Source of the DNA: Octopus sinensis | Lineage: Eukaryota | Direction of reading: 5' to 3' | DNA: 29,103 nucleotides | Assembly: GCF_006345805.1 (NCBI RefSeq) | Contig: NW_021832705.1 | Span: 1 to 29,103, forward strand | Shown: piece by piece, positions 8,010 through 22,790 of the stretch | Layout of the letters: the number at the start of each line of letters is the position of its first letter | Numbering within the stretch: position 1 is the stretch's first letter | The notes under the pieces: generated by a model | The model's database searches: none | Seen by the model: only the letters and a program-made list of their open reading frames with translations | Told to the model about the DNA's origin: nothing | Program-made: the position numbers and the translations under genes

Positions 8010-8427
8010 ACCTTTTTTTTTTTTACTACCCACAAGGGGCTAAACACAGAGAGGACAAACAAGGACAGACAAACGGATTAAGTCGATTATATCGACCTCA
8101 GTGCGTAACTGGTACTTATTTAATCGACCACGAAAGGATGAAAGGCAAAGTCGACCTCGGCAAAATTTGAACTCAGAACGTAGCGGCAGACGAAATACCT
8201 ATTTCTTTACTACCCACAAGGGGCTAAACACAGAGAGGACAAACAAAGACAGACAAACAGATTAAGCCGATTATATCGACCCCAGTGCGTAACTGGTACT
8301 TATTTAATCGACCACGAAAGGATGAAAGGCAAAGTCGACCTCGGCAGAATTTGAACTCAGAACGTAGCGGCAGGCGAAATACTGCTAAGCATTTAACCCG
8401 GCGTGCTAACGCTTCTGCCAGCTCGCC
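8010..8427 (-). mobile_element. SINE family B head-to-tail dimer (full 8198-8427 plus 5'-truncated 8010-8197)
   Basis: Two very similar units of about 190 bp joined at GAAATACC. Confidence 0.92.
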
Positions 8428-9279: not shown

Positions 9280-9560
9280 AGAAAGTGAACGCGTAAACTC
9301 CAAGACCGCTCATTTTTAATCCATTCTGGTCACTTCCAATTTTTTTTTTTACTTTTTATTCCTGACGCAATATTTTTAAACGCGCGAAAAATAATTAACC
9401 GAATTACTTCCCTTTAATTTTACGTTTTATTTTCTACTTGGCTTTACCTCCTCTTGTTTTATTTTCGGTTTACTTTCTACCCTGTAGATGGCGCGTTGTT
9501 AATAACGCTTCGCCTTAACAACGTGTAAACTTCAAGTTTTTGTAAAGAATGTTAATACGA
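9280..9560. promoter_or_regulatory. Candidate NPHP1 promoter (CpG-enriched)
   Basis: Local CpG cluster; ETS-like CACTTCC 9331-9337, E2F-like CGCGCGAAAA 9381-9390, YY1-like AGATGGCG 9486-9493, X-box-like GTTGTT motifs 9495-9522; directly upstream of the ORF. Confidence 0.5.
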
Positions 9561-9564
9561 ACAG

Positions 9565-9707
9565 GTAGATACACACACACACACACTCATATATTTATAT
9601 ATAGATAGATACACACACACAGACATACATTGACGCGAGCAGCCACGTTTATTCATTCATACATTCGTACACACACTCGCGCCCAACTTATTCTTCTACA
9701 TACACAG
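9565..9707 (+). other. Candidate 5'-UTR intron (143 bp)
   Basis: Donor CAG|GTAGAT; acceptor CTTATTCTTCTACATACACAG|G 11 nt before the ATG; interior contains CA/TA repeats. Confidence 0.55.
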
Positions 9708-9718
9708 GCGTAATAATA

Positions 9719-12664
9719 ATGTTGGGCAGGACACCAGTTGCGCTCCAGACGTTATCGAATTCGTATGATAAATTAAAAAAAGATACAGATTCGTTTCTAA
9801 AGAAGTTTAAAAAGTTTAAGAAGTCGAATCCGGACGTGAAGGAGTCGGAGAATGTTTTGGCGTTGAGCGAAGAATGTAAAAGTTTAGCGAACGAGTTGGA
9901 AGGTCTAACGAAGGAAATTGATTTACTTGAAAATAAGGATCCGAAACAACAGAAGAATTTCGATTCCAAGAAAAAGAGCCTTCTGAAAAAAGTGGCCACC
10001 CAACAGAAACTAGTATCAGATGCTTACGATGTTATTGTTCAACAAACAGCATCAGAAGAAAACGAAGGAAACAAAAACGGTGAAAGTACCAAAGATACAG
10101 ATTCAGTGGGAAAGGCGGCAGCGAAAAGCACCACAACAAAGAAGAAGCAAAAGGAGATTTCTGAGAAGCAAAATCGATCGAAGAAAGAAAACAATAATAA
10201 CAGTAGTAAGAAAGGTTCCCAGTCTGGAAGCAGCATTTCAGGAAATATTCTAGGAAATCATGAAAAAGAAATAAACGAAGATATATCTGAAAATGTGGAC
10301 GAGCTTGATGAAAGCGATGATGATGATGACGACGACGACGATGAAGACGATGACGATGATGATGATGACAATGAAGAGGATGATGATGACGAAGAGGAAG
10401 AAGAGGGTGCAACTAGTACTACTGGTGCTGCTAGTACTAGTGCCACTGCTAGCTCGAGTGGCCCAGCTAGTAGTACCAGTGTTGCAGTTACAGAGAATGA
10501 CGATGTTAGTAAGGTAAAGTCTTTTACAAGTAGCCATTCTTCTTCGAAATCCAAGTCGAAAATTTTGAAACAGAAATCAGACTCTGAGAAAAGCCCCACT
10601 CAAGTTGTTCCCACGCCAGATCCTCATGAGGGACCAGCAGCAGCGACAACAACAACAACAACCACAGAAAGTCAAAGTTCGGTGACCAACCAGAAGAAGA
10701 AAGGTTTGAAATCAAAGTTAATAGCCGACATGAAATCAGTTTTGAAACATAATCTTTGTCCTAAAGAGAAATTACCTCCAAAAACTAAGGAACCCTTGGA
10801 AGAGGAAGATGAAGGAAAGAAGGAGGAAGAGGAAGAGGAGTCAGATGAAGAAGAGGTGGAGGAGGAGTCTGATGAATATGAGGCAGAAGAGGAGAAGGAG
10901 GACGTGGGTAAAGTGGATGAGGAAGAAGGGGATTCTACAAATGAGGAAGATGATGATGATGATGAGGAGGAATCTGAGTCTGATGAAGAAGTAGAACTTC
11001 CTACTAAGTATTTTGTTGCATTATCAAACTATGAGAAAGAAGAGACGAATGATTTAAGTTTTAAGAAAGGTGAAGTCTTGAAAATCGTGCAGGCCCATCG
11101 AAATGGTTGGTGGCTTGCTGAAAATAAGGATGGTTTTCGAGGCCTGGTGCCCAGCACCTATCTGCAGATGAGGTCTACTACTGATGTCGATGATGATGAT
11201 GAGGAGGAGGAGGATAGCACTGAAGAATCGGCAAAAGATGAAGGAGAAAGTGACAGTGATGATAACTTTGAGGAAGAAGAAGAAGAGAAAGAAAAAGAAA
11301 ATGAAGAAGACTCAGATATGGATGAGGATGTGAAAGTGGACAGCGGAGGAGATAAACCGAAAATTCGTTCTGCTAAACAACTTTGGCAAACTATCAAAGA
11401 ATCGATTCAAGAACAATCCATTGTTGATGTTCTTCAAGCAAAAGGCACTGTGCCATCTGGTTTCAGACCTTCTACTCTGAGTAGTTTATGGGCTGCCAAC
11501 TCGGAGTATCGCATGGAGAAAGCACTTCATCCGTCCTTGAGTAAAACTGCAATGGGCTATACAGATTTGTTTTACTCTCCTTCAGACAAACATATTTGTC
11601 CTTACAGTGTAAATATATTAAAAATTGGGAGTATTCAGTCTTGCCGGAACATTCCACAAACAGGTCCGGGTATCGATGTCCAGTGTCGATGCGTACGAGT
11701 TTGTATCTTTGATGGAAAAAATGTCTTGAGTAACATACACACAATCAAAGTGCAATCAGTTGATAAATCTCAAAAGTCTTGGAGTTTTTCTTCTCGTGTC
11801 TCTGATAATATGGATGTCAGTTTACATACGGAATTCTTTGTGAGAACAAATTACTCAGGGAATCAGATAAGTTTACTGTTTGAGCTGTGTCTGTCATACA
11901 CCCAACAAGACACCCAGGAACAAGGGATATTCAGCTGTGGTTGGACTAAGCTTTTATTAAATGAAGAAACCATTACAAACCGTTCTTATGAATTGCCCCT
12001 TCATGGTGGAACTCCCTATGATAGAGGTATTCCTCTTGACTCCAGGTTTTCAAATGCAGTTGAAGAGAATTCCTTTCTTAGTCTTTTTACTGGACACCAA
12101 AAGCCAACATTAGTGGTCAAAATTTTTCCTCCCAAAAAAGAACAGAAAGATGTTTTGAACAGTTTACCTCACACCATCATTGGTAATGCATGCCTGATGC
12201 ATTTCTATGCATTGTACCGGAACATTCTGGCAAAGACTCTCCTACGAGACAGAACCGATTCAGATAACACGGAGCTGATATCCAGTTCGGTTTTGGCGTC
12301 TTTCCCTTTGGTTGCGGATCAATTCGACATGATGCAATTGCTTCGTGACACTTGGATCGAGAAACAGAAAGAGATGAGTCGAACGGCTCGACGCGACAGC
12401 AACAACCACAAGAAGATGTTTATAGATAGTTTCCTGGAGACTGTTTACCCATTTTCCCATATATTGACCCCCGGAGGGCCTGCAACAGGCATAGACACAA
12501 ACCAAAGGCAGTATGATGCCATACAGAAATTCAAAGAATTGAAATCAGAACGTGGATCTACGCTGGCCGTATTGTTGAGCGATGATTTCACTTACGAACC
12601 AATGAGACTAAATGAAGTGACATTTTCTGTTTTGAAAGATAACGAATCCGTAAGTGAGGCATGA
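9719..12664 (+). CDS. NPHP1: Nephrocystin-1 homologue, 981 aa, single uninterrupted ORF
   Basis: N-terminal coiled coil, D/E tracts, SH3 domain (11006-11167: ALSNY..DLSFKKGE..GWW..GLVPSTYL), then nephrocystin-homology domain motifs PSGFRPSTLS, RVCIFDGKNVLSNIHT, LLFELCLSY, SCGW, YELPLHGGTPY. Order and motifs match vertebrate NPHP1 as I recall it. Confidence 0.95.
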   Translation: MLGRTPVALQTLSNSYDKLKKDTDSFLKKFKKFKKSNPDVKESENVLALSEECKSLANELEGLTKEIDLLENKDPKQQKNFDSKKKSLLKKVATQQKLVSDAYDVIVQQTASEENEGNKNGESTKDTDSVGKAAAKSTTTKKKQKEISEKQNRSKKENNNNSSKKGSQSGSSISGNILGNHEKEINEDISENVDELDESDDDDDDDDDEDDDDDDDDNEEDDDDEEEEEGATSTTGAASTSATASSSGPASSTSVAVTENDDVSKVKSFTSSHSSSKSKSKILKQKSDSEKSPTQVVPTPDPHEGPAAATTTTTTTESQSSVTNQKKKGLKSKLIADMKSVLKHNLCPKEKLPPKTKEPLEEEDEGKKEEEEEESDEEEVEEESDEYEAEEEKEDVGKVDEEEGDSTNEEDDDDDEEESESDEEVELPTKYFVALSNYEKEETNDLSFKKGEVLKIVQAHRNGWWLAENKDGFRGLVPSTYLQMRSTTDVDDDDEEEEDSTEESAKDEGESDSDDNFEEEEEEKEKENEEDSDMDEDVKVDSGGDKPKIRSAKQLWQTIKESIQEQSIVDVLQAKGTVPSGFRPSTLSSLWAANSEYRMEKALHPSLSKTAMGYTDLFYSPSDKHICPYSVNILKIGSIQSCRNIPQTGPGIDVQCRCVRVCIFDGKNVLSNIHTIKVQSVDKSQKSWSFSSRVSDNMDVSLHTEFFVRTNYSGNQISLLFELCLSYTQQDTQEQGIFSCGWTKLLLNEETITNRSYELPLHGGTPYDRGIPLDSRFSNAVEENSFLSLFTGHQKPTLVVKIFPPKKEQKDVLNSLPHTIIGNACLMHFYALYRNILAKTLLRDRTDSDNTELISSSVLASFPLVADQFDMMQLLRDTWIEKQKEMSRTARRDSNNHKKMFIDSFLETVYPFSHILTPGGPATGIDTNQRQYDAIQKFKELKSERGSTLAVLLSDDFTYEPMRLNEVTFSVLKDNESVSEA

Positions 12665-13189
12665 TTCAGAACAAAAATAAGGCAACCCCACCCCCACAAA
12701 AAAAAAAACTCACCTGTCTTTGTGAGAAAGACTAAATCTTGAAGAAAAGGTTTGATGTGTGATGAGATGAAAGAGAGATTGTTGTTTCAAGCAGGGATTC
12801 TTTGATTTATTTTCAAGTAAATTGCAACTGATGAAGGCCACCACATCACCATTGGACTACCATTTTCTAATTACTGTCAGGTAAATCTCAATGAGATTCA
12901 TTTTTGATATTGCTGCTATCAGTCAGGTAATTTTACCAGGTACTTAATTAGATTTGTGTACTTAGTGGTTGATATGTTTGTTTGAAACTGTATTGTAATG
13001 ACAGTACAGTACTAGATGTACTAAATGTATTTGTGAGTCCTGATTAGTCAATGTTACAATCTCACCTGTACATGCACACACATATTTCGAAATATAATCA
13101 AAACAAACACCTTTCATATCCAAGAATATCTAAGCACAAAAACACTATATATACGTGCGTATGTATATGTATGTATGTGTGTATATATA

Positions 13190-13552
13190 TCTTTATATAT
13201 AAAAGTAAGGTTGTGTGTCTGTCTCCTACGATTTAGATTCCTAACTACTCCCACATTTTGCGGTGCAGTTTAACCAAAACCGGGTATCTTATAGTCGTGA
13301 TTCATATCGAGCCCTTCTGGGTATTAGCGCACGTCTACGATTTAAAAAAAAATTTACCATCATTTTTTTCCATTTTAATGCATTTTTTTGCTATTATATA
13401 AGGGAAGTAACTCTCTAAAAATGTCTACGATGAGTCAACGATTTAAAAAAAAATTTACCATCATTTTTTTGCTTTTTTGGCTATAACTCTCTAAAATTGC
13501 TTATATAGTTATTTCCCTTACAAACCCGAGCAACGCCAGGTGATACTCCTAG
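13190..13552 (+). mobile_element. Non-autonomous Helitron
   Basis: Starts TC after A, ends CTAG before T; subterminal GC-rich imperfect hairpin CCCGAGCAACGCCAGG; internal direct repeat ACGATTTAAAAAAAAATTTACCATCATTTTTTT. Confidence 0.75.
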
Positions 13553-13753
13553 TATATATATAAAAAAATAAGCAGCAAGGATATCCAAGGTAGAGTAGTA
13601 CAATTGTTTCATGCTTGCTTATTTTGATTATAATCACCCCATTTGATTTATATGGATAATACCATACAAAATTCTGGTGCCTTTAACTTAAGTACCATAT
13701 TCATCTGAATCTAAATTTTGCTGAACTTATGTGTGTATATATATATATATATA

Positions 13754-13946
13754 TACTCTTTTACTTGTTTCAGTCATTTGACTGCGGCCATGCTGGAGCA
13801 CCGCCTTTAATCGAGCAACTCGACCCCGGGACTTATTCTTTTGTAAGCCCAGTACTTATTCTATCGGTCTCTTTTGCCGAACCGCTAAATAACGGGGACA
13901 TAAACACACCAGCATCGGTTGTCAAGCAATGCTAGGGGGACAAACA

Positions 13947-13999
<53 letters not shown>

Positions 14000-14069
14000 G
14001 GATAAAAACAGTTTGATTCAAATTCGTTGGTAATCTTGAGTTTCAAGCATGATGCTAGTCGTCAGCTGT

Positions 14070-14101
<32 letters not shown>

Positions 14102-14233
14102 AACAACGGGCTTCCATACAGTTTCCATCTAATTCCAGTTACTAGCACAGTAGAAGACACTTGCCCAAGGGTGCTGTGCAGTGAGGTAGAACATAAAGCC
14201 ACGTGCTTTCAAAGCCAATTATTCCCATAGCCT
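13754..14233 (-). mobile_element. SINE family A (well-preserved 3' half, internal CA/TA repeats, degenerate 5' half)
   Basis: 13754-13950 is the reverse complement of 20395-20588; GAAGACACTTGCCCAAGG near 14153-14170. Confidence 0.85.
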
Positions 14234-14320
14234 AGACTTGTATACACGTGCGTATACATAAATACACACACATACACTGGTTTTGTTTCACGTTTTTTTT
14301 TTTTATTACGAACCCACTAA

Positions 14321-14690
14321 GGTGGCAGAACCATTAGCATAGCATGGCAGGCAACATGCTTAGCGGCATTTTATTTCGGCTGCCATTACATTCTGAGTTC
14401 AAATTCCGCCGAGGTCGACTTTGCCTTTCATCCTTTCGGGGTCGATAAATTAAGTACCAGTTACGCACTGAGGTCGATGTAATCGACTTAATACCTATGT
14501 CTGTCCTTGTTTGTCCCCTCTATGTTTAGCCCCTTGTGGGTAATAAAGAAATAGGTATTTTATCCATCTTAATGATTTGAGTTCGAATTCTGCTGAAATT
14601 GACTTTGAAAGGGTGAAACCCTTTGAGGGTTGATAAAATGAATATCAGTCAAAAATTGGGGCTGATGTAATCAATCAATTAGTGCCCCAC
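14321..14690 (+). mobile_element. Young SINE B (about 14375-14556) nested in an older SINE B
   Basis: Degenerate head, well-conserved body, then a degenerate body resumes; ATTTTAT at 14368-14374 and 14557-14563. Confidence 0.8.
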
Positions 14691-15270
14691 AACATACACA
14701 CACACACATAATCATGTTGGGCTTGCTCCCTTCCCCCACCCACACCTTCGTTCTCTCCGACACACTGTGCCTTGCAATTTTGGAACAGCGCTTTCAAATT
14801 CATTGTTTACATAATATTTCCATCTCCCAGTTGAGCTGTAGAACTCCTCAAAAGGGACAGGAGTTCAAACTGCTTTCAGGGATAAACACTTTTTTGAAGG
14901 GATTTCATTGGTGATGGGCATATTATCCGCATATAAGCCAAACTCGACTGTGAGCAGTAGACTCCACAGACTTTGTTCGCAATTCTTTGTATAAATCATG
15001 AATCTGAATAACTTGTGTGTGTGAATCACTGATACTTTTTTACGATGCAGATTCACCAACAATTTAAATAAAATAACAGCTGAGGAATCTGTAACTTTTA
15101 AATAAAGAAATCTTATTCTATTGACCTCAGTGAAATATTAAAACAATTTATATAAAAATTTCCCTCATATTTTGTTCTCTTTGGATCCAATCCTTCAAAG
15201 TATTTTCAATAAAATATTTAATTTTTCTATATCAAATATATGAAGTGTATATATTTGATGCATCTATTAA

Positions 15271-15491
15271 CCCTTTCATTACCAGCCCAGCTGAAACCGG
15301 CTCTGGCTCTGAGTACAAATGCCTTGTTTTCATATGTTTCGAATTAAAATCTTCCACCAAACCTTAGTCACAATTTATGTTCCTAACACTAGCTTATTGA
15401 TAACTAAGTTGTTTTACTAAATTCTTTGTTATATTTAAAATTAATTGGAAGAAACACAGAGCATCTCAACAGAAATATGGTAACAAAACGG
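15271..15491. mobile_element. piggyBac-type MITE, copy 1
   Basis: TTAA|CCCTTTC...AAAACGG|TTAA; homologous to copy 2. Confidence 0.8.
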
Positions 15492-15522
15492 TTAAAATAT
15501 ACAATAGAAAAACAATTCTTAA

Positions 15523-15744
15523 CCCTTTCGATACCAACCTGGCTGAAACTGCCTCTGGCTCTGAGTACAAATGCCTTATTTTCATAAGTTTTGAATTAAA
15601 ATCTTCCACCAAACCTTAGTCACAATTTATGTTCCTAACACTAAGCTTAATGATAACTAAGTTATTTAACTAAATTCTTTGTTATATTTAAAATTAATTG
15701 AAAGAAACACAGAGCATCTCAAAATAAATACAGTAACGAAAGGG
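15523..15744. mobile_element. piggyBac-type MITE, copy 2
   Basis: TTAA|CCCTTTCGATAC...GTAACGAAAGGG|TTAA terminal inverted repeats with TTAA TSD. Confidence 0.85.
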
Positions 15745-16173
15745 TTAAATACCATTTTTTCAAATGATGTAAAATGCTGCCATTTTGATGGTAGAGGATG
15801 GTGGTTGTGTGTCATTGATGTGACACAACCAATCCAAAGAAGTAACTTTGAATTCGACTCAAGCATCCATCTTTTTACTTGTTTCCTTTAACCAAACTTT
15901 CCAAGGTGGTGCCAGGCTGGCCATCTGATGCTTGGTTTGTCGTGGAGGCATCAAGTGTACCTGAAACCTGATTTACAAGTGGACTTGAAAATGTGAATGG
16001 AATCACCCCACTTTTGCATCAAATTGCTCTCCTCATATTTACTCTATTGATCTCTGACTGACCTCATTCAGTTCATCTACTGCTGCTTTTTTTGGCAGTT
16101 TTCTCTTTCATTTCAGGTTCCACAATGGCATTTCTATAACTTATTCTTGACAATTTAAAAAATTACTTTCTGA

Positions 16174-16470
16174 CCAAAGGTTCTCAACTCATTTTGGCCA
16201 AAGACCCCCTTTTGACCCCTGGAGTCACAAATGGACCCTCCCACTAGAAAATAGTTTAATTTTTCAATATACTATTTATTTTGATAATGGTTAAAAAATA
16301 AAGGGCGTCATTTTACATATGCACTTGTATGCTGTCGGGGATACAGATGTACATACTGAAATGCAAAATAATGAAATAATGAATTGAAAGTTTGGTAATT
16401 GCGTTTATTTCCACCACTCAACACTTATGAGATTAATGTGTTGTTTATTGAAAGAGTGCACCCAGTCCAT
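16174..16470 (-). mobile_element. Possible decayed hAT/Charlie-type transposon end
   Basis: CCAAAGGTTCTCAAC resembles CAGGGGTTCTCAAC-type termini; minus-strand AAACAACACATTAATCTCAT resembles a decayed KQAHxSH C-terminus. Weak. Confidence 0.3.
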
Positions 16471-18439: not shown

Positions 18440-19971
18440 TATAGTAGTAGTAGTAGTTTCAGCAGCAGCAGTAGTAGTTGTAGTAGTAGTTTCAGCAGCA
18501 GCAGTAGTAGCTGTTGTAGTAGTTGTAGTAACAGCAGCAGCAGTAGTAGTAGTAGTTTCAGCAGCAGTTGTAGTAGTAGTAGTAGTAACAGCAGCAGCAG
18601 TAGTAGTAGTAACAGCAGCAGCAGTAGTAGTAGTAGTAGTTTCAGCAGCAGCAGTAGTAGTAGTAGTAACAGCAGCAGCAGTAGTAGTAGTAGTAACAGC
18701 AGTAGTAGTGGTAGTTACAGCAGCAGCAGCAGTAGTAGTAGTAGTAGTTTCAGCACAGCAGTAGTAGTAAGTAACATCAGTAAACAGCAGTAGTAGTGGT
18801 AGTTACAGCAGCAGCAGTAGTAGTAAGTAGTAGTAGTTTCAGCAGTCAGCAGTAGTAGTAGTAGTAACAGCAGCAGCAGTAGTATTAGTAGTAACAGCAG
18901 CAGCAGTAGTAGTATAGTAACAGCAGCAGCAGTAGTATAGTAGTAACAGCAGCAGGCAGTAGTAGGAACCTGCAGCCGTAGTAGTAGTAGGTGTAACCGC
19001 AGTAGTAGTGGTAGTTACAGCAGCAGCAGCAGTAGTAGTAGTAGTAGTTTCAGCAGCAGCAGTAGTAGTAGTAGTAACAGCAGTAGTAGTGGTAGTTACA
19101 GCAGCAGCAGCAGTAGTAGTAGTAGTAGTTTCAGCAGCAGCAGTAGTAGTAGTAGTAACAGCAGCAGCAGTAGTAGTAGTAGTAACAGCAGTAGTAGTGG
19201 TAGTTACAGCAGCAGCAACAGGCAGTAGTAGTAGTAGTAGTTTCAGCAGCAGCAGTAGTAGGTAGTAGTACAGCAGTAGTAGTGGTAGTTACAGCAGCAG
19301 GCAGCAGTAGTAGTAGAGTAGTTTCAGCAGCAGCAGTAGTAGTAGTAGTACACAGCAGCAGTAGTAGTAGTAGTACAGCATTAGTAGTGGTAGTTACAGC
19401 AGCAGCAGCAGTAGTAGTAGTAGTAGTTTCAGCAGCAGCAGTAGTAGTAGTATAACAGCAGCAGCAGTAGTAGTAGTATAACGCATTATTAGTGGTATTT
19501 ACAGCAGCAGCAGCAGTAGTAGTAGTAGTAGTTTCAGCAGCAGCAGTAGTAGTAGTAGTAACAGCAGCAGCAGTAGTAGTAGTAGTAACAGCAGCAGCAG
19601 TAGTAGTAGTAGTAACATCAGCAGCAGTAGTAAGTAGTAGTATTAAGTAGTCCTATCGTAGTCCCAGCAGCAGTAGTAAGTAGTAGTAGTAACAGCAGTA
19701 GTAGTGGTAGTTACAGCACAGCAGCAGTAGTAGTTAGTAGTTTCACAGCAGCAGTAGTAGTAGTAGTAACAGCAGTAGTAGTGGTAGTTACAGCAGCAGC
19801 AGCAGTAGTAGTAGTAGTAGTTTCAGCAGCAGTAGTAGTAGTAGTAGCAGCAGTAACAGCAGTAGCAGTAGTAGTAGTAACAGCAGCAGCAGTAGTAGTA
19901 GTAGTAACATCAGTAGTAGTAACAGCAGCAGTAGTAGTAGTAACAGCAGCAGTAGTAGTAGTAACAGCAGC

Positions 19972-20010
<39 letters not shown>

Positions 20011-20055
20011 TACAGCAGCAGCAGTAGTAGTAGTAGTAGTAGCAGCAGCAGCAGC
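18440..20055. repeat. Compound (TAG)n/(CAG)n array with a higher-order unit
   Basis: Alternating triplet blocks joined by TAA, TTT or GTGGTAGTTA linkers. Confidence 0.95.
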
Positions 20056-21349: not shown

Positions 21350-21744
21350 ACATCATCGTTGTCATCGTCGTCATCATCATCATCATCGTCCTCATCTTCA
21401 TCGTTATCATCGCCTTCGTCGTCGTCCTGCTCCTCCTCTTCCATTTCATCTTCATCATCGTCGTCATCATCATCATCACCATCATCACCATCATCATCAT
21501 CGTCCTCATCTTCATCGTTATCATCGCCTTCGTCGTCGTCCTCCTCCTCCTCCATCTCATCTTCATCATCGTCCTCATCATCATCATCATCACCACCACC
21601 ACAACCATCATCATCATCATCGTCGTCGTAATAATGGTCATCGACGTTGTCATCGTCGTCATCATCATCATCATCATCACCATCATCATAATCGTCGTCG
21701 TCGTCCTAGCCGTCATCGTCGTCATCACCATTGTCTTCATAATT

Positions 21745-21775
<31 letters not shown>

Positions 21776-22330
21776 TCATCGTCAAGAACATCATCATCGT
21801 CATCATCACAACCAACTTGCAACAACTCCCTTGCTACTAAGTACAGCGACCATAACCGCTGACACTCCTCATCGTGGCCACCACCACTTACTACCATCAC
21901 AACCACAACTCCAACCACAACCACTATCACCACCGCTACCGTCACCACAACCACCACCATCACCCACCACAGCCACCACTGTCACCACCGTCACTACAAC
22001 TGCCACCGCTGTCACTGCAACCGAGACTACAACTACCACTATCTCTGCCACTATTACCACTACCACCGCCACCACTGCTACCAGCTGTACTGAAACTACC
22101 ACTCATACTGCTACCATTGCTAATACAACCACCACCATCACTACAACAACCATAACAACATCAACAACAACAACGGCAACATCACCTCCACTACTACTGC
22201 TACTACTACTGCCACTACTGCTACTACTACTACTACTACTACTATATCTACTACTACTGCCACTACTACTACTACAGCCACTGCGGCTGCTACAACTACT
22301 ACTACTGCCACTGCTACTACCACCACCACT

Positions 22331-22366
<36 letters not shown>

Positions 22367-22489
22367 GCCACTGCTACTACTACTACTACTACTACTGCCA
22401 CTGCTGCTGCTGCTACTACACTACTACTACTACTACAACTACTACCGCCGCCACTACTACTACTACTACTACTACCACTACTACCGCCG

Positions 22490-22538
<49 letters not shown>

Positions 22539-22790
22539 CAGCATTATCATGGTCAGCAGCAACAGCAGCAGCAACAGCAAAAAACAACTACATGGATCAT
22601 CATCACAACTAGCACCATCACCAACATCATCATCACCAGCATCACCATTAACAGCAACAGCAGTAGCAGCAACAATGGTTATGTGTACCACCACCACCAC
22701 CACCACCACCACCACTATCACGAGCCACAACAACCTCAGCAGCAGATGCAGCAGCAATGAGGATGACGGCACCAGCATCATTATCATCAA
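21350..22790. repeat. Compound triplet repeats (CAT/CGT, CAC, CTA, CAG)
   Basis: Consecutive trinucleotide blocks, open in several frames on both strands. Confidence 0.93.

What the first reader, a model, noticed from the sequence alone, without database searches (positions are those of the whole stretch)
9719..12664. Intronless but intact NPHP1: probable functional retrogene
Seen: a 2946-bp ORF with all domains and no stop, frameshift, intron or TE insertion, in a window otherwise saturated with repeats. Established: vertebrate NPHP1 is multi-exon (about 20 exons in human) and mollusc genes are generally intron-rich. Inference: a retrocopy under selection that may have replaced the parental gene, or wholesale intron loss. 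No TSD recognised, so it is likely old.
Basis: partly seen in the sequence, partly recalled or inferred. Interest (0 to 1): 0.75.

Follow-up and report, generated by a model that had tools for sequence, protein, structure and literature searches.

The report
Octopus NPHP1 lost all its introns
This octopus encodes the cilium-gate protein nephrocystin-1 in one unbroken reading frame, whereas clam-like and fish-like relatives carry introns at matching positions and no spliced copy turns up in its genome, so a reverse-transcribed mRNA copy likely replaced the original gene; a younger, frameshifted duplicate also exists.

Summary
Confirmed. Window 9719-12664 is a 981-aa stop-free NPHP1 (coiled coil, SH3, predicted C2 and helical domain), 94-99% identical in its C-terminal part to two annotated Octopus proteins. 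The ancestor was multi-exon: 18 intron positions recur in at least 2 of 20 genomic loci of other organisms, and 9 of 11 clam-like positions match fish-like loci; octopus has none. Three own-genome searches found no spliced parent, while control genes (Meckelin, RFT1) show up exon by exon. Best reading: retrogene replacement (0.55); in-place loss 0.33. Expression not shown. This scan noted the same kind of event before, for other octopod genes (USP34, CFAP46, MDN1); I found 5458-aa and 3775-aa open frames for two such families here. Known kind (amphioxus SYCP1, human orphan retrogenes); not found in print for NPHP1.

The parts
9719..12664 (+). Single-exon NPHP1 coding sequence, 981 aa
   Evidence: this exact protein is in NCBI/UniRef
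9719..10063 (+). N-terminal NPHP1 coiled-coil region (aa 1-115)
   Evidence: profile of 13 homologous N-termini, E 2e-13; no solved relative found
10064..11014 (+). Long low-complexity acidic/Ser-Thr linker (aa 116-432), longer than in most molluscs; most indels between the two copies lie here
11015..11167 (+). SH3 domain (aa 433-483)
   Evidence: Pfam PF00018, PF07653, PF14604
11615..12127 (+). Predicted NPHP1-C2 beta-sandwich (about aa 633-803)
   Evidence: model strands; architecture SH3+NPHP1-C2+helical in PMC3495828
12137..12574 (+). Predicted C-terminal alpha-helical domain (about aa 807-952)
9400..10000 (+). CpG-rich 5' zone (observed/expected 1.64-1.69, against 0.18-1.03 in the rest of the ORF); likely promoter/5'UTR
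   Evidence: function inferred
9455..9487 (+). Polypyrimidine tract + TAG, a possible 3' splice site of a 5'UTR intron; kept in both copies
   Evidence: one X15 contig starts at about 9488 but an X2 contig runs through it: unresolved
9319..16459 (+). Block duplicated at G000:C25:27236522-27226679 (minus strand); no poly(A) or TSD at its ends, so likely a DNA-level duplication
10224..10245 (+). Place at which the C25 copy has a net 11-base loss (its first frame stops after 181 aa); the window copy is intact here
   Evidence: same gap in contigs of X15 and X17, one study
12670..12710 (+). A-rich tract just after the stop, in both copies; too degraded to call a poly(A) remnant; no AATAAA/ATTAAA until 14542

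Best explanation
This is an intact, intron-free nephrocystin-1 gene, under purifying selection and with no spliced copy found in the genome, that likely arose when a reverse-transcribed, spliced NPHP1 mRNA was inserted at a new site and the intron-bearing parent was then lost. Shown: intact ORF and domains; introns at conserved positions in other animals; no spliced copy found; selection; a second, frameshifted copy. Inferred: the RNA intermediate (every mappable intron is gone, with no scar at its site), insertion at a new site, a promoter in the CpG-rich zone just upstream, and the ordinary role of the protein at the ciliary transition zone with NPHP4 and RPGRIP1L (NPHP1-4-8 complex, PMC3495828). 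After the split from O. bimaculoides (if rates were even) a 7-kb DNA block holding the gene was duplicated; both copies stayed constrained for most of the time since, and the C25 copy then took a frameshift, leaving the window copy as the only full-length one found.
For: Ancestral introns: spliced alignment of 20 of the 28 metagenome loci gave 18 positions seen in at least 2 loci. Loci L039, L041, L049 group with the clam Ruditapes (support 95, quick tree) and give 11 positions with canonical GT-AG ends; 9 of the 11 recur in teleost-like L040/L045. Isoform differences in named molluscs fall at or within 3 aa of the same sites (aa 548, 565, 649, 728, 778, 849, 889-891 in Ruditapes, Argopecten, Saccostrea, Haliotis, Bradybaena; 565 and 592 in Peromyscus). 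No parent: own-genome searches with the octopus C-terminus, full-length Haliotis protein and a bivalve-like C-terminus found only the two intronless copies in the C-terminal domain. Controls: Meckelin 8 pieces over 38 kb on C10, RFT1 7 pieces over 14 kb on C25, Tectonic 2 pieces on C7, so exons of conserved genes are detectable and intron loss is not genome-wide. mRNA copying occurs here: compact, stop-ridden copies of Meckelin (C9002) and RFT1 (C8901). Selection: window vs C25 dS 0.089, dN/dS 0.32 overall and 0.20 in aa 548-981 (24 changes at 281 synonymous sites, 18 at 1021 non-synonymous; p 3e-7); 11 of 12 coding indels keep the frame; 24 of 2000 neutral simulations stay open at 4.5% change and 0 of 2000 at 7%. 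The C25 copy sits head-to-head about 3 kb from kanadaptin, a neighbour that is hundreds to thousands of accession numbers away in three outgroups, as a new insertion would give. Other very long single frames in this genome: midasin family 5458 aa, DUF3517 family 3775 aa. PMC3548309 calls retroposition the most parsimonious cause when all introns are gone.
Against: NPHP1 and kanadaptin lie on contigs of identical length in 5 of 6 chromosome-scale outgroups (Gigantopelta, Liolophura, Owenia, Tubulanus, Glandiceps; not Mya) and in O. vulgaris; 8 further species with both genes on different, apparently sub-chromosomal scaffolds are uninformative. A random insertion would land beside a gene of its parent's ancestral chromosome only about 1 time in 21-22 (ancestral molluscan chromosome number from PMC9068888), though only one neighbour was tested. 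No TSD or clear poly(A). One of the three parent searches ran with a stricter first look, the assembly has 13,516 pieces, and the other two scored only 8 and 3 candidates. Many in-frame indels lie in triplet repeats, which inflates that test. Expression is not shown. Exon structure in squid, cuttlefish, Nautilus and the two other Octopus species was not seen.
Confidence: 0.55

Rival explanations
1. In-place overwrite: a full-length cDNA recombined with the original NPHP1 locus and removed all coding introns at once (or in a few long tracts), leaving the gene, its promoter and perhaps a 5'UTR intron where they were.
For: The gene is still linked to kanadaptin, its chromosome-mate in 5 of 6 chromosome-scale outgroups and in O. 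vulgaris. Explains the missing parent, TSD and poly(A) without a separate loss. Splice-acceptor-like site at 9455-9487 kept in both copies. Recombination of genes with their cDNA is a described route of intron loss (PMC5470649 passage).
Against: That route usually spares 5' introns, yet the whole coding region is clean. Octopus chromosomes mix several ancestral linkage groups (PMC9068888, PMC12682272), and only one neighbour was tested, so the linkage is a modest signal (my estimate 4-8 fold). The two genes are not adjacent in outgroups. An X2 contig runs unspliced through the acceptor-like site.
Confidence: 0.33
2. The retrocopy coexists with a spliced parent that is missing from this assembly or too diverged to find.
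For: Fragmented assembly (13,516 pieces); first-look filters.
Against: Protein searches returned one NPHP1 each for O. vulgaris and O. bimaculoides, both collinear with the window protein; control genes were found exon by exon.
Confidence: 0.06
3. Stepwise, DNA-level loss of introns one by one, without an RNA intermediate.
For: Long cephalopod stem branch leaves time; a 2-aa gap near aa 750 lies close to the 754 intron site.
Against: All 18 recurrent sites are gone, nearly all without a scar, while neighbouring RFT1 and the ciliary genes Meckelin and Tectonic keep introns.
Confidence: 0.04
4. The window contig is only an allelic haplotig of the C25 locus, or a cDNA artefact.
For: The window is a whole unplaced 29-kb contig; both sequence types occur in the same runs.
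Against: The copies differ at 44 sites in 1341 bases, the window protein is closer to O. vulgaris than to C25 (support 98), similarity stops sharply at 9319 and 16459, and in O. vulgaris the window-type protein is 516 accession numbers from kanadaptin. Either way the gene is intronless.
Confidence: 0.02

Closest known systems
Retrogene replacement of amphioxus SYCP1 (PMC5803294; abstract and one results section seen)
   Same: About 3 kb single coding exon, multi-exon in most other animals, no parent found, close to a head-to-head neighbour, possible 5'UTR splicing.
   Different: There the new site, transcripts, 5'UTR exons and shared promoter were shown. Here the site may be ancestral, expression is unshown, and a younger frameshifted duplicate holds the head-to-head position.
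Human 'orphan' retrogenes (PMC3548309, abstract and 4 passages; PMC5470649, passages)
   Same: All introns gone, parent absent, purifying selection.
   Different: One of their methods required a changed genomic location; here location relative to the ancestor is unresolved and chromosome-level linkage is kept. NPHP1 is not mentioned in the main text.
Nephrocystin-1 / NPHP1 of the NPHP1-4-8 transition-zone complex (PMC3495828, passages; PMC8623546, passages)
   Same: Coiled coil + SH3 + predicted NPHP1-C2 + helical domain; nests inside mollusc NPHP1 in the tree.
   Different: Gene structure; longer acidic linker (981 aa against about 750-850 in most molluscs); long cephalopod stem branch, though not clearly beyond a control gene.
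Other fully intron-free octopod genes noted by this scan (USP34, CFAP46, MDN1; unreviewed notes)
   Same: Conserved, normally intron-rich gene present as one long frame.
   Different: Two of those were reported nested in host introns (not checked here); NPHP1 is intergenic on C25 and keeps an ancestral linkage.

Membership tests
NPHP1 (nephrocystin-1) orthologue | SH3 domain preceded by an N-terminal coiled-coil region | tested here: met
NPHP1 (nephrocystin-1) orthologue | NPHP1-C2 plus helical C-terminal domain homologous to named NPHP1 | tested here: met
   33-45% identity over most of it to named animal NPHP1; beta-sandwich + helices in the model; structural search weak
NPHP1 (nephrocystin-1) orthologue | Falls within mollusc NPHP1 in a tree | tested here: met
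   mollusc clade support 99, quick tree only
NPHP1 (nephrocystin-1) orthologue | Localises to the ciliary transition zone with NPHP4 | not testable with these tools
   from PMC3495828; not tested in octopus
Orphan retrogene / retrogene replacement | Ancestral gene had introns and all coding introns are lost | tested here: met
   (sites mapped for aa 459-929; the ORF is unbroken throughout)
Orphan retrogene / retrogene replacement | No intron-bearing parent in the genome | tested here: met
   with controls 30, 55, 81; limited by assembly and first-look filters
Orphan retrogene / retrogene replacement | Intact and under purifying selection | tested here: met
Orphan retrogene / retrogene replacement | Genomic location differs from the parent's | tested here: inconclusive
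   same ancestral chromosome as kanadaptin in 5 of 6 outgroups, but not adjacent in the three where accessions were compared
Orphan retrogene / retrogene replacement | Poly(A) remnant and target-site duplication | tested here: not met
   expected to decay in old copies, and the true insertion ends are unknown, so this weakens but does not exclude
Orphan retrogene / retrogene replacement | Transcribed | tested here: inconclusive
   only contigs of runs guessed to be RNA or of unknown kind

The most novel reading that the evidence does not exclude
NPHP1 was overwritten in place by its own full-length cDNA, losing about 18 or more ancient introns in one step while staying on its ancestral chromosome, and it belongs to a lineage-wide purge in which octopods replaced many large, essential single-copy genes (midasin, a DUF3517 deubiquitinase, CFAP46, NPHP1) by intron-free versions while their neighbours kept introns.
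Probability: 0.3. Interest if true: 0.75.

Novelty: new member of a known kind. Interest (0 to 1): 0.5.

Why it matters
NPHP1 introns are shared between clam-like and fish-like genes, and several also with loci that branch outside bilaterians in my tree, so their complete loss in octopus is a clean, datable event in a gene linked to human kidney and eye disease. Loss of all coding introns removes the alternative splicing seen in other molluscs and may change regulation. As one case it is a known kind of event. As part of a set (midasin and DUF3517 families confirmed here as very long single frames) it makes a general question testable: do whole-gene intron losses in animals come from insertion at new sites or from overwriting the parent in place? 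Ancestral linkage groups give the test, and cephalopod genomes now allow it. The pair of copies also shows a duplicate just after loss of its full-length frame.

Tried and rejected
Expression: no RNA holder listed; runs are 'RNA?' or '?' and held as contigs only, so depth was not used as evidence. Contigs do run collinearly across the ORF (X4 10410-12681, X17 10978-12685, apart from skipped repeats) and no joint with splice ends is listed inside the coding sequence. 5'UTR intron: unresolved (one contig starts at about 9488 with no loose end listed; another runs through). Nesting in RFT1: rejected, its first matched exon starts 13 kb downstream of the C25 copy. Second retroposition as the origin of the C25/window pair: rejected, no poly(A) or TSD, and the block includes flanking repeats. 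Placing the window contig: flank searches returned only repeats. Pfam scan of 137 flanking frames (28 from the window): no family in the window; RFT1, reverse transcriptase, integrase, Mos1-type and PIF1 pieces on C25. Rate acceleration: Owenia-to-octopus distance 1.22 times the median of 9 other molluscs for NPHP1 and 1.11 for kanadaptin, not a clear effect. Solved-structure search of the N-terminus gave only chance hits. Other cephalopods: only P0080 (281 aa, unnamed, sister to octopus, support 100) and P0028 (octopus-like) turned up; neither shows exon structure. L022-L024 look unspliced over the domain (L022); they are 2.0-2.6 kb contigs, probably transcripts, and L022 falls outside molluscs, so I did not count them as intronless genes. 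8 of 28 loci were not run through the spliced aligner (L023, L024, L028, L033, L037, L042, L044, L048); its terminal exons are unreliable and were dropped for the tree. The careful tree did not finish; the quick one is used. Linkage-group tables: no hit for the gene names in 3 supplements of PMC8809688; the two main supplements of PMC9068888 were too large to read and may bear on the linkage argument. Not found in print: searches (listings only) gave no report of intronless NPHP1 or of retrogene replacement in cephalopods; subscription papers are not covered. PMC8793726 and PMC10339062 (passages) added nothing used.
Full report
Observation. The window is the whole unplaced contig G000:C9176 of a 2.72-Gb genome; a neighbouring gene on C25 is identical to a protein annotated in Octopus sinensis. 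The frame 9719-12664 (+) gives 981 aa without a stop; shuffles reach at most 156 aa (500 runs). It has an SH3 domain at aa 433-479, an N-terminus matching other NPHP1 N-termini and a C-terminal 432 aa whose 25 hits are named nephrocystin-1 or NPHP1 wherever a function is named. A model shows a beta-sandwich followed by helices, the SH3 + NPHP1-C2 + helical layout given in PMC3495828 (passages); the structural search gave only weak PI3K hits.

Was the ancestor spliced? Two independent lines say yes. First, RefSeq/GenBank isoforms of one locus differ by short blocks at octopus positions 548, 565, 649, 728, 778, 849 and 889-891 in Ruditapes, Argopecten, Saccostrea, Haliotis and Bradybaena, and at 565 and 592 in Peromyscus. 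Second, a scan of metagenome contigs gave 28 loci; a spliced alignment of 20 of them found 18 intron positions that recur in at least 2 loci (459/2, 483/0, 550/2, 565/0, 593/1, 625/0, 650/1, 668/0, 693/0, 717/1, 730/0, 754/2, 780/1, 813/2, 851/1, 876/0, 891/0, 929/0). In a quick tree of 42 rows, L039, L041 and L049 group with the clam Ruditapes and L040 and L045 with teleosts. The three clam-like loci give 11 positions with canonical ends, 9 of which recur in the teleost-like loci. The octopus frame reads through all 18, with no gap at the sites except 2 aa near 750.

Is there a parent? Searches of the own genome with the octopus C-terminus (E up to 10), a full Haliotis protein and a bivalve-like C-terminus found the window and one more intronless copy, and otherwise only other SH3 or acidic stretches and three weak hits at E 1.5-4.8. 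The same tool finds Meckelin as 8 pieces on C10, RFT1 as 7 on C25 and Tectonic as 2 on C7, so intron loss is gene-specific. Meckelin and RFT1 each also have a compact, stop-ridden copy (C9002, C8901), which shows that mRNAs get copied into this genome. Limits: 13,516 pieces, few candidates scored, one stricter search.

The second copy. G000:C25:27233301-27236081 (minus) is also intronless. The shared block is window 9319-16459, with sharp ends, no poly(A) and no TSD: likely a DNA duplication. The C25 copy has one net 11-base loss at window 10224-10245, so its first frame ends after 181 aa; the rest is an open frame of 828 codons. The same gap is in contigs of X15 and X17 (one study), so it is not an assembly error. 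Between the copies dS is 0.089 and dN/dS 0.32 overall, 0.20 in aa 548-981 (p 3e-7) and 0 in the SH3 (1 change); 11 of 12 coding indels keep the frame, though many are in triplet repeats. An unconstrained frame would stay open in 24 of 2000 runs at 4.5% change and in 0 of 2000 at 7%. The window protein groups with O. vulgaris (98) to the exclusion of C25; both differ from O. bimaculoides more than from each other in the C-terminal listing, so the duplication likely falls between those two splits. C25-type letters also occur in X4, a run of another organism label.

Where does it sit? On C25 the copy lies head-to-head about 3 kb from kanadaptin and 13 kb upstream of RFT1. In O. vulgaris the window-type protein and kanadaptin are on the same 45,560,751-base chromosome, 516 accession numbers apart, so the window probably belongs to that chromosome. 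In Gigantopelta, Tubulanus and Glandiceps the accessions are 2423, 971 and 429 apart, so they were linked, not adjacent. With 21-22 ancestral molluscan chromosomes that were mixed in coleoids (PMC9068888, PMC12682272; passages), a random insertion would have such a neighbour about 5% of the time, a gene left in place perhaps 25-50% (my estimate). This is one neighbour only, but it lifts the in-place reading from unlikely to a serious rival.

Expression and promoter. CpG observed/expected peaks at 1.64-1.69 over 9400-10000 and is 0.18-1.03 over the rest of the ORF, as an unmethylated promoter before a methylated gene body would give (inference). A splice-acceptor-like site at 9455-9487 is kept in both copies; read contigs neither prove nor exclude its use. 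No run on record as RNA was listed, so transcription is not shown.

Mechanism. An RNA step is very likely (about 0.88 for the two RNA-based readings together): every mappable intron is gone almost without scars while neighbours keep theirs. I commit to retroposition followed by loss of the parent (0.55), because complete loss including the 5' part is the usual sign of it (PMC3548309, PMC5470649; passages), processed copies are present here, and the present neighbours are new. In-place overwrite by cDNA gets 0.33. When it happened is open: an unnamed 281-aa protein (P0080) is sister to the octopus genes on a long stem, but its exon structure is unknown.

Context and novelty. Earlier unreviewed notes of this scan report the same kind of event for USP34, CFAP46 and MDN1 in octopod genomes and an intronless CCA-adding enzyme copy in this one; none concerns animal NPHP1. 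I checked two families here: midasin lid domains lie in one 5458-aa frame on C18, and a DUF3517 domain in a 3775-aa frame on C4; host-intron nesting and CFAP46 were not checked. The closest published case is amphioxus SYCP1 (PMC5803294; abstract and section 5). Six literature searches (listings only) found no report for NPHP1 or for cephalopods. Verdict: real, new member of a known kind; interest 0.5, higher if the lineage-wide pattern or in-place overwrite holds.

Noticed in passing
G000:C9002:25807-27334 (-): Compact, stop-containing copy of Meckelin/TMEM67 (profile positions 352-825 in about 1.5 kb): a processed pseudogene of the multi-exon gene on C10.
   Followed up: no
G000:C8901:477322-478041 (-): Compact RFT1 copy with 6 stops, likely a processed pseudogene.
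   Followed up: no
G000:C18:34265735-34270321 (+): Midasin lid domains in one 5458-aa open frame; a decayed copy with similar spacing on C8703.
   Followed up: partly
   Followed up: partly
G000:C6:554320-554862 (-): Tectonic domain positions 25-141 in one 275-aa open frame, while the C7 copy is split: a possible further intron-poor or intron-free transition-zone gene.
   Followed up: no
G000:C25:27235781-27233301 (-): Behind its frameshift the C25 copy keeps an open frame with an out-of-frame upstream ATG (about 826 aa, SH3 and C-terminal domains intact); a product lacking the coiled coil is possible but untested.
   Followed up: partly
L007:4427-6797 (C25:27229427-27231797): LTR-type retroelement pieces (RT, RNase H, integrase zinc finger) inserted in the duplicated block downstream of the C25 copy only.
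   Followed up: no
window 8018-8382: Two tandem 184-bp copies (96% alike) of a very abundant SINE-like repeat, followed by multi-copy LINE-like DNA up to about 9210 (class recalled).
   Followed up: no
L031, L032: NPHP1-like genes with many short introns (about 50-90 bp) that branch outside bilaterians in the tree and share several intron sites with clams and fish.
   Followed up: partly
window 18442-20051, 21351-22715: Long triplet arrays (TAG/CAG, CAT, ACT) give spurious low-complexity ORFs of up to 498 aa.
   Followed up: no
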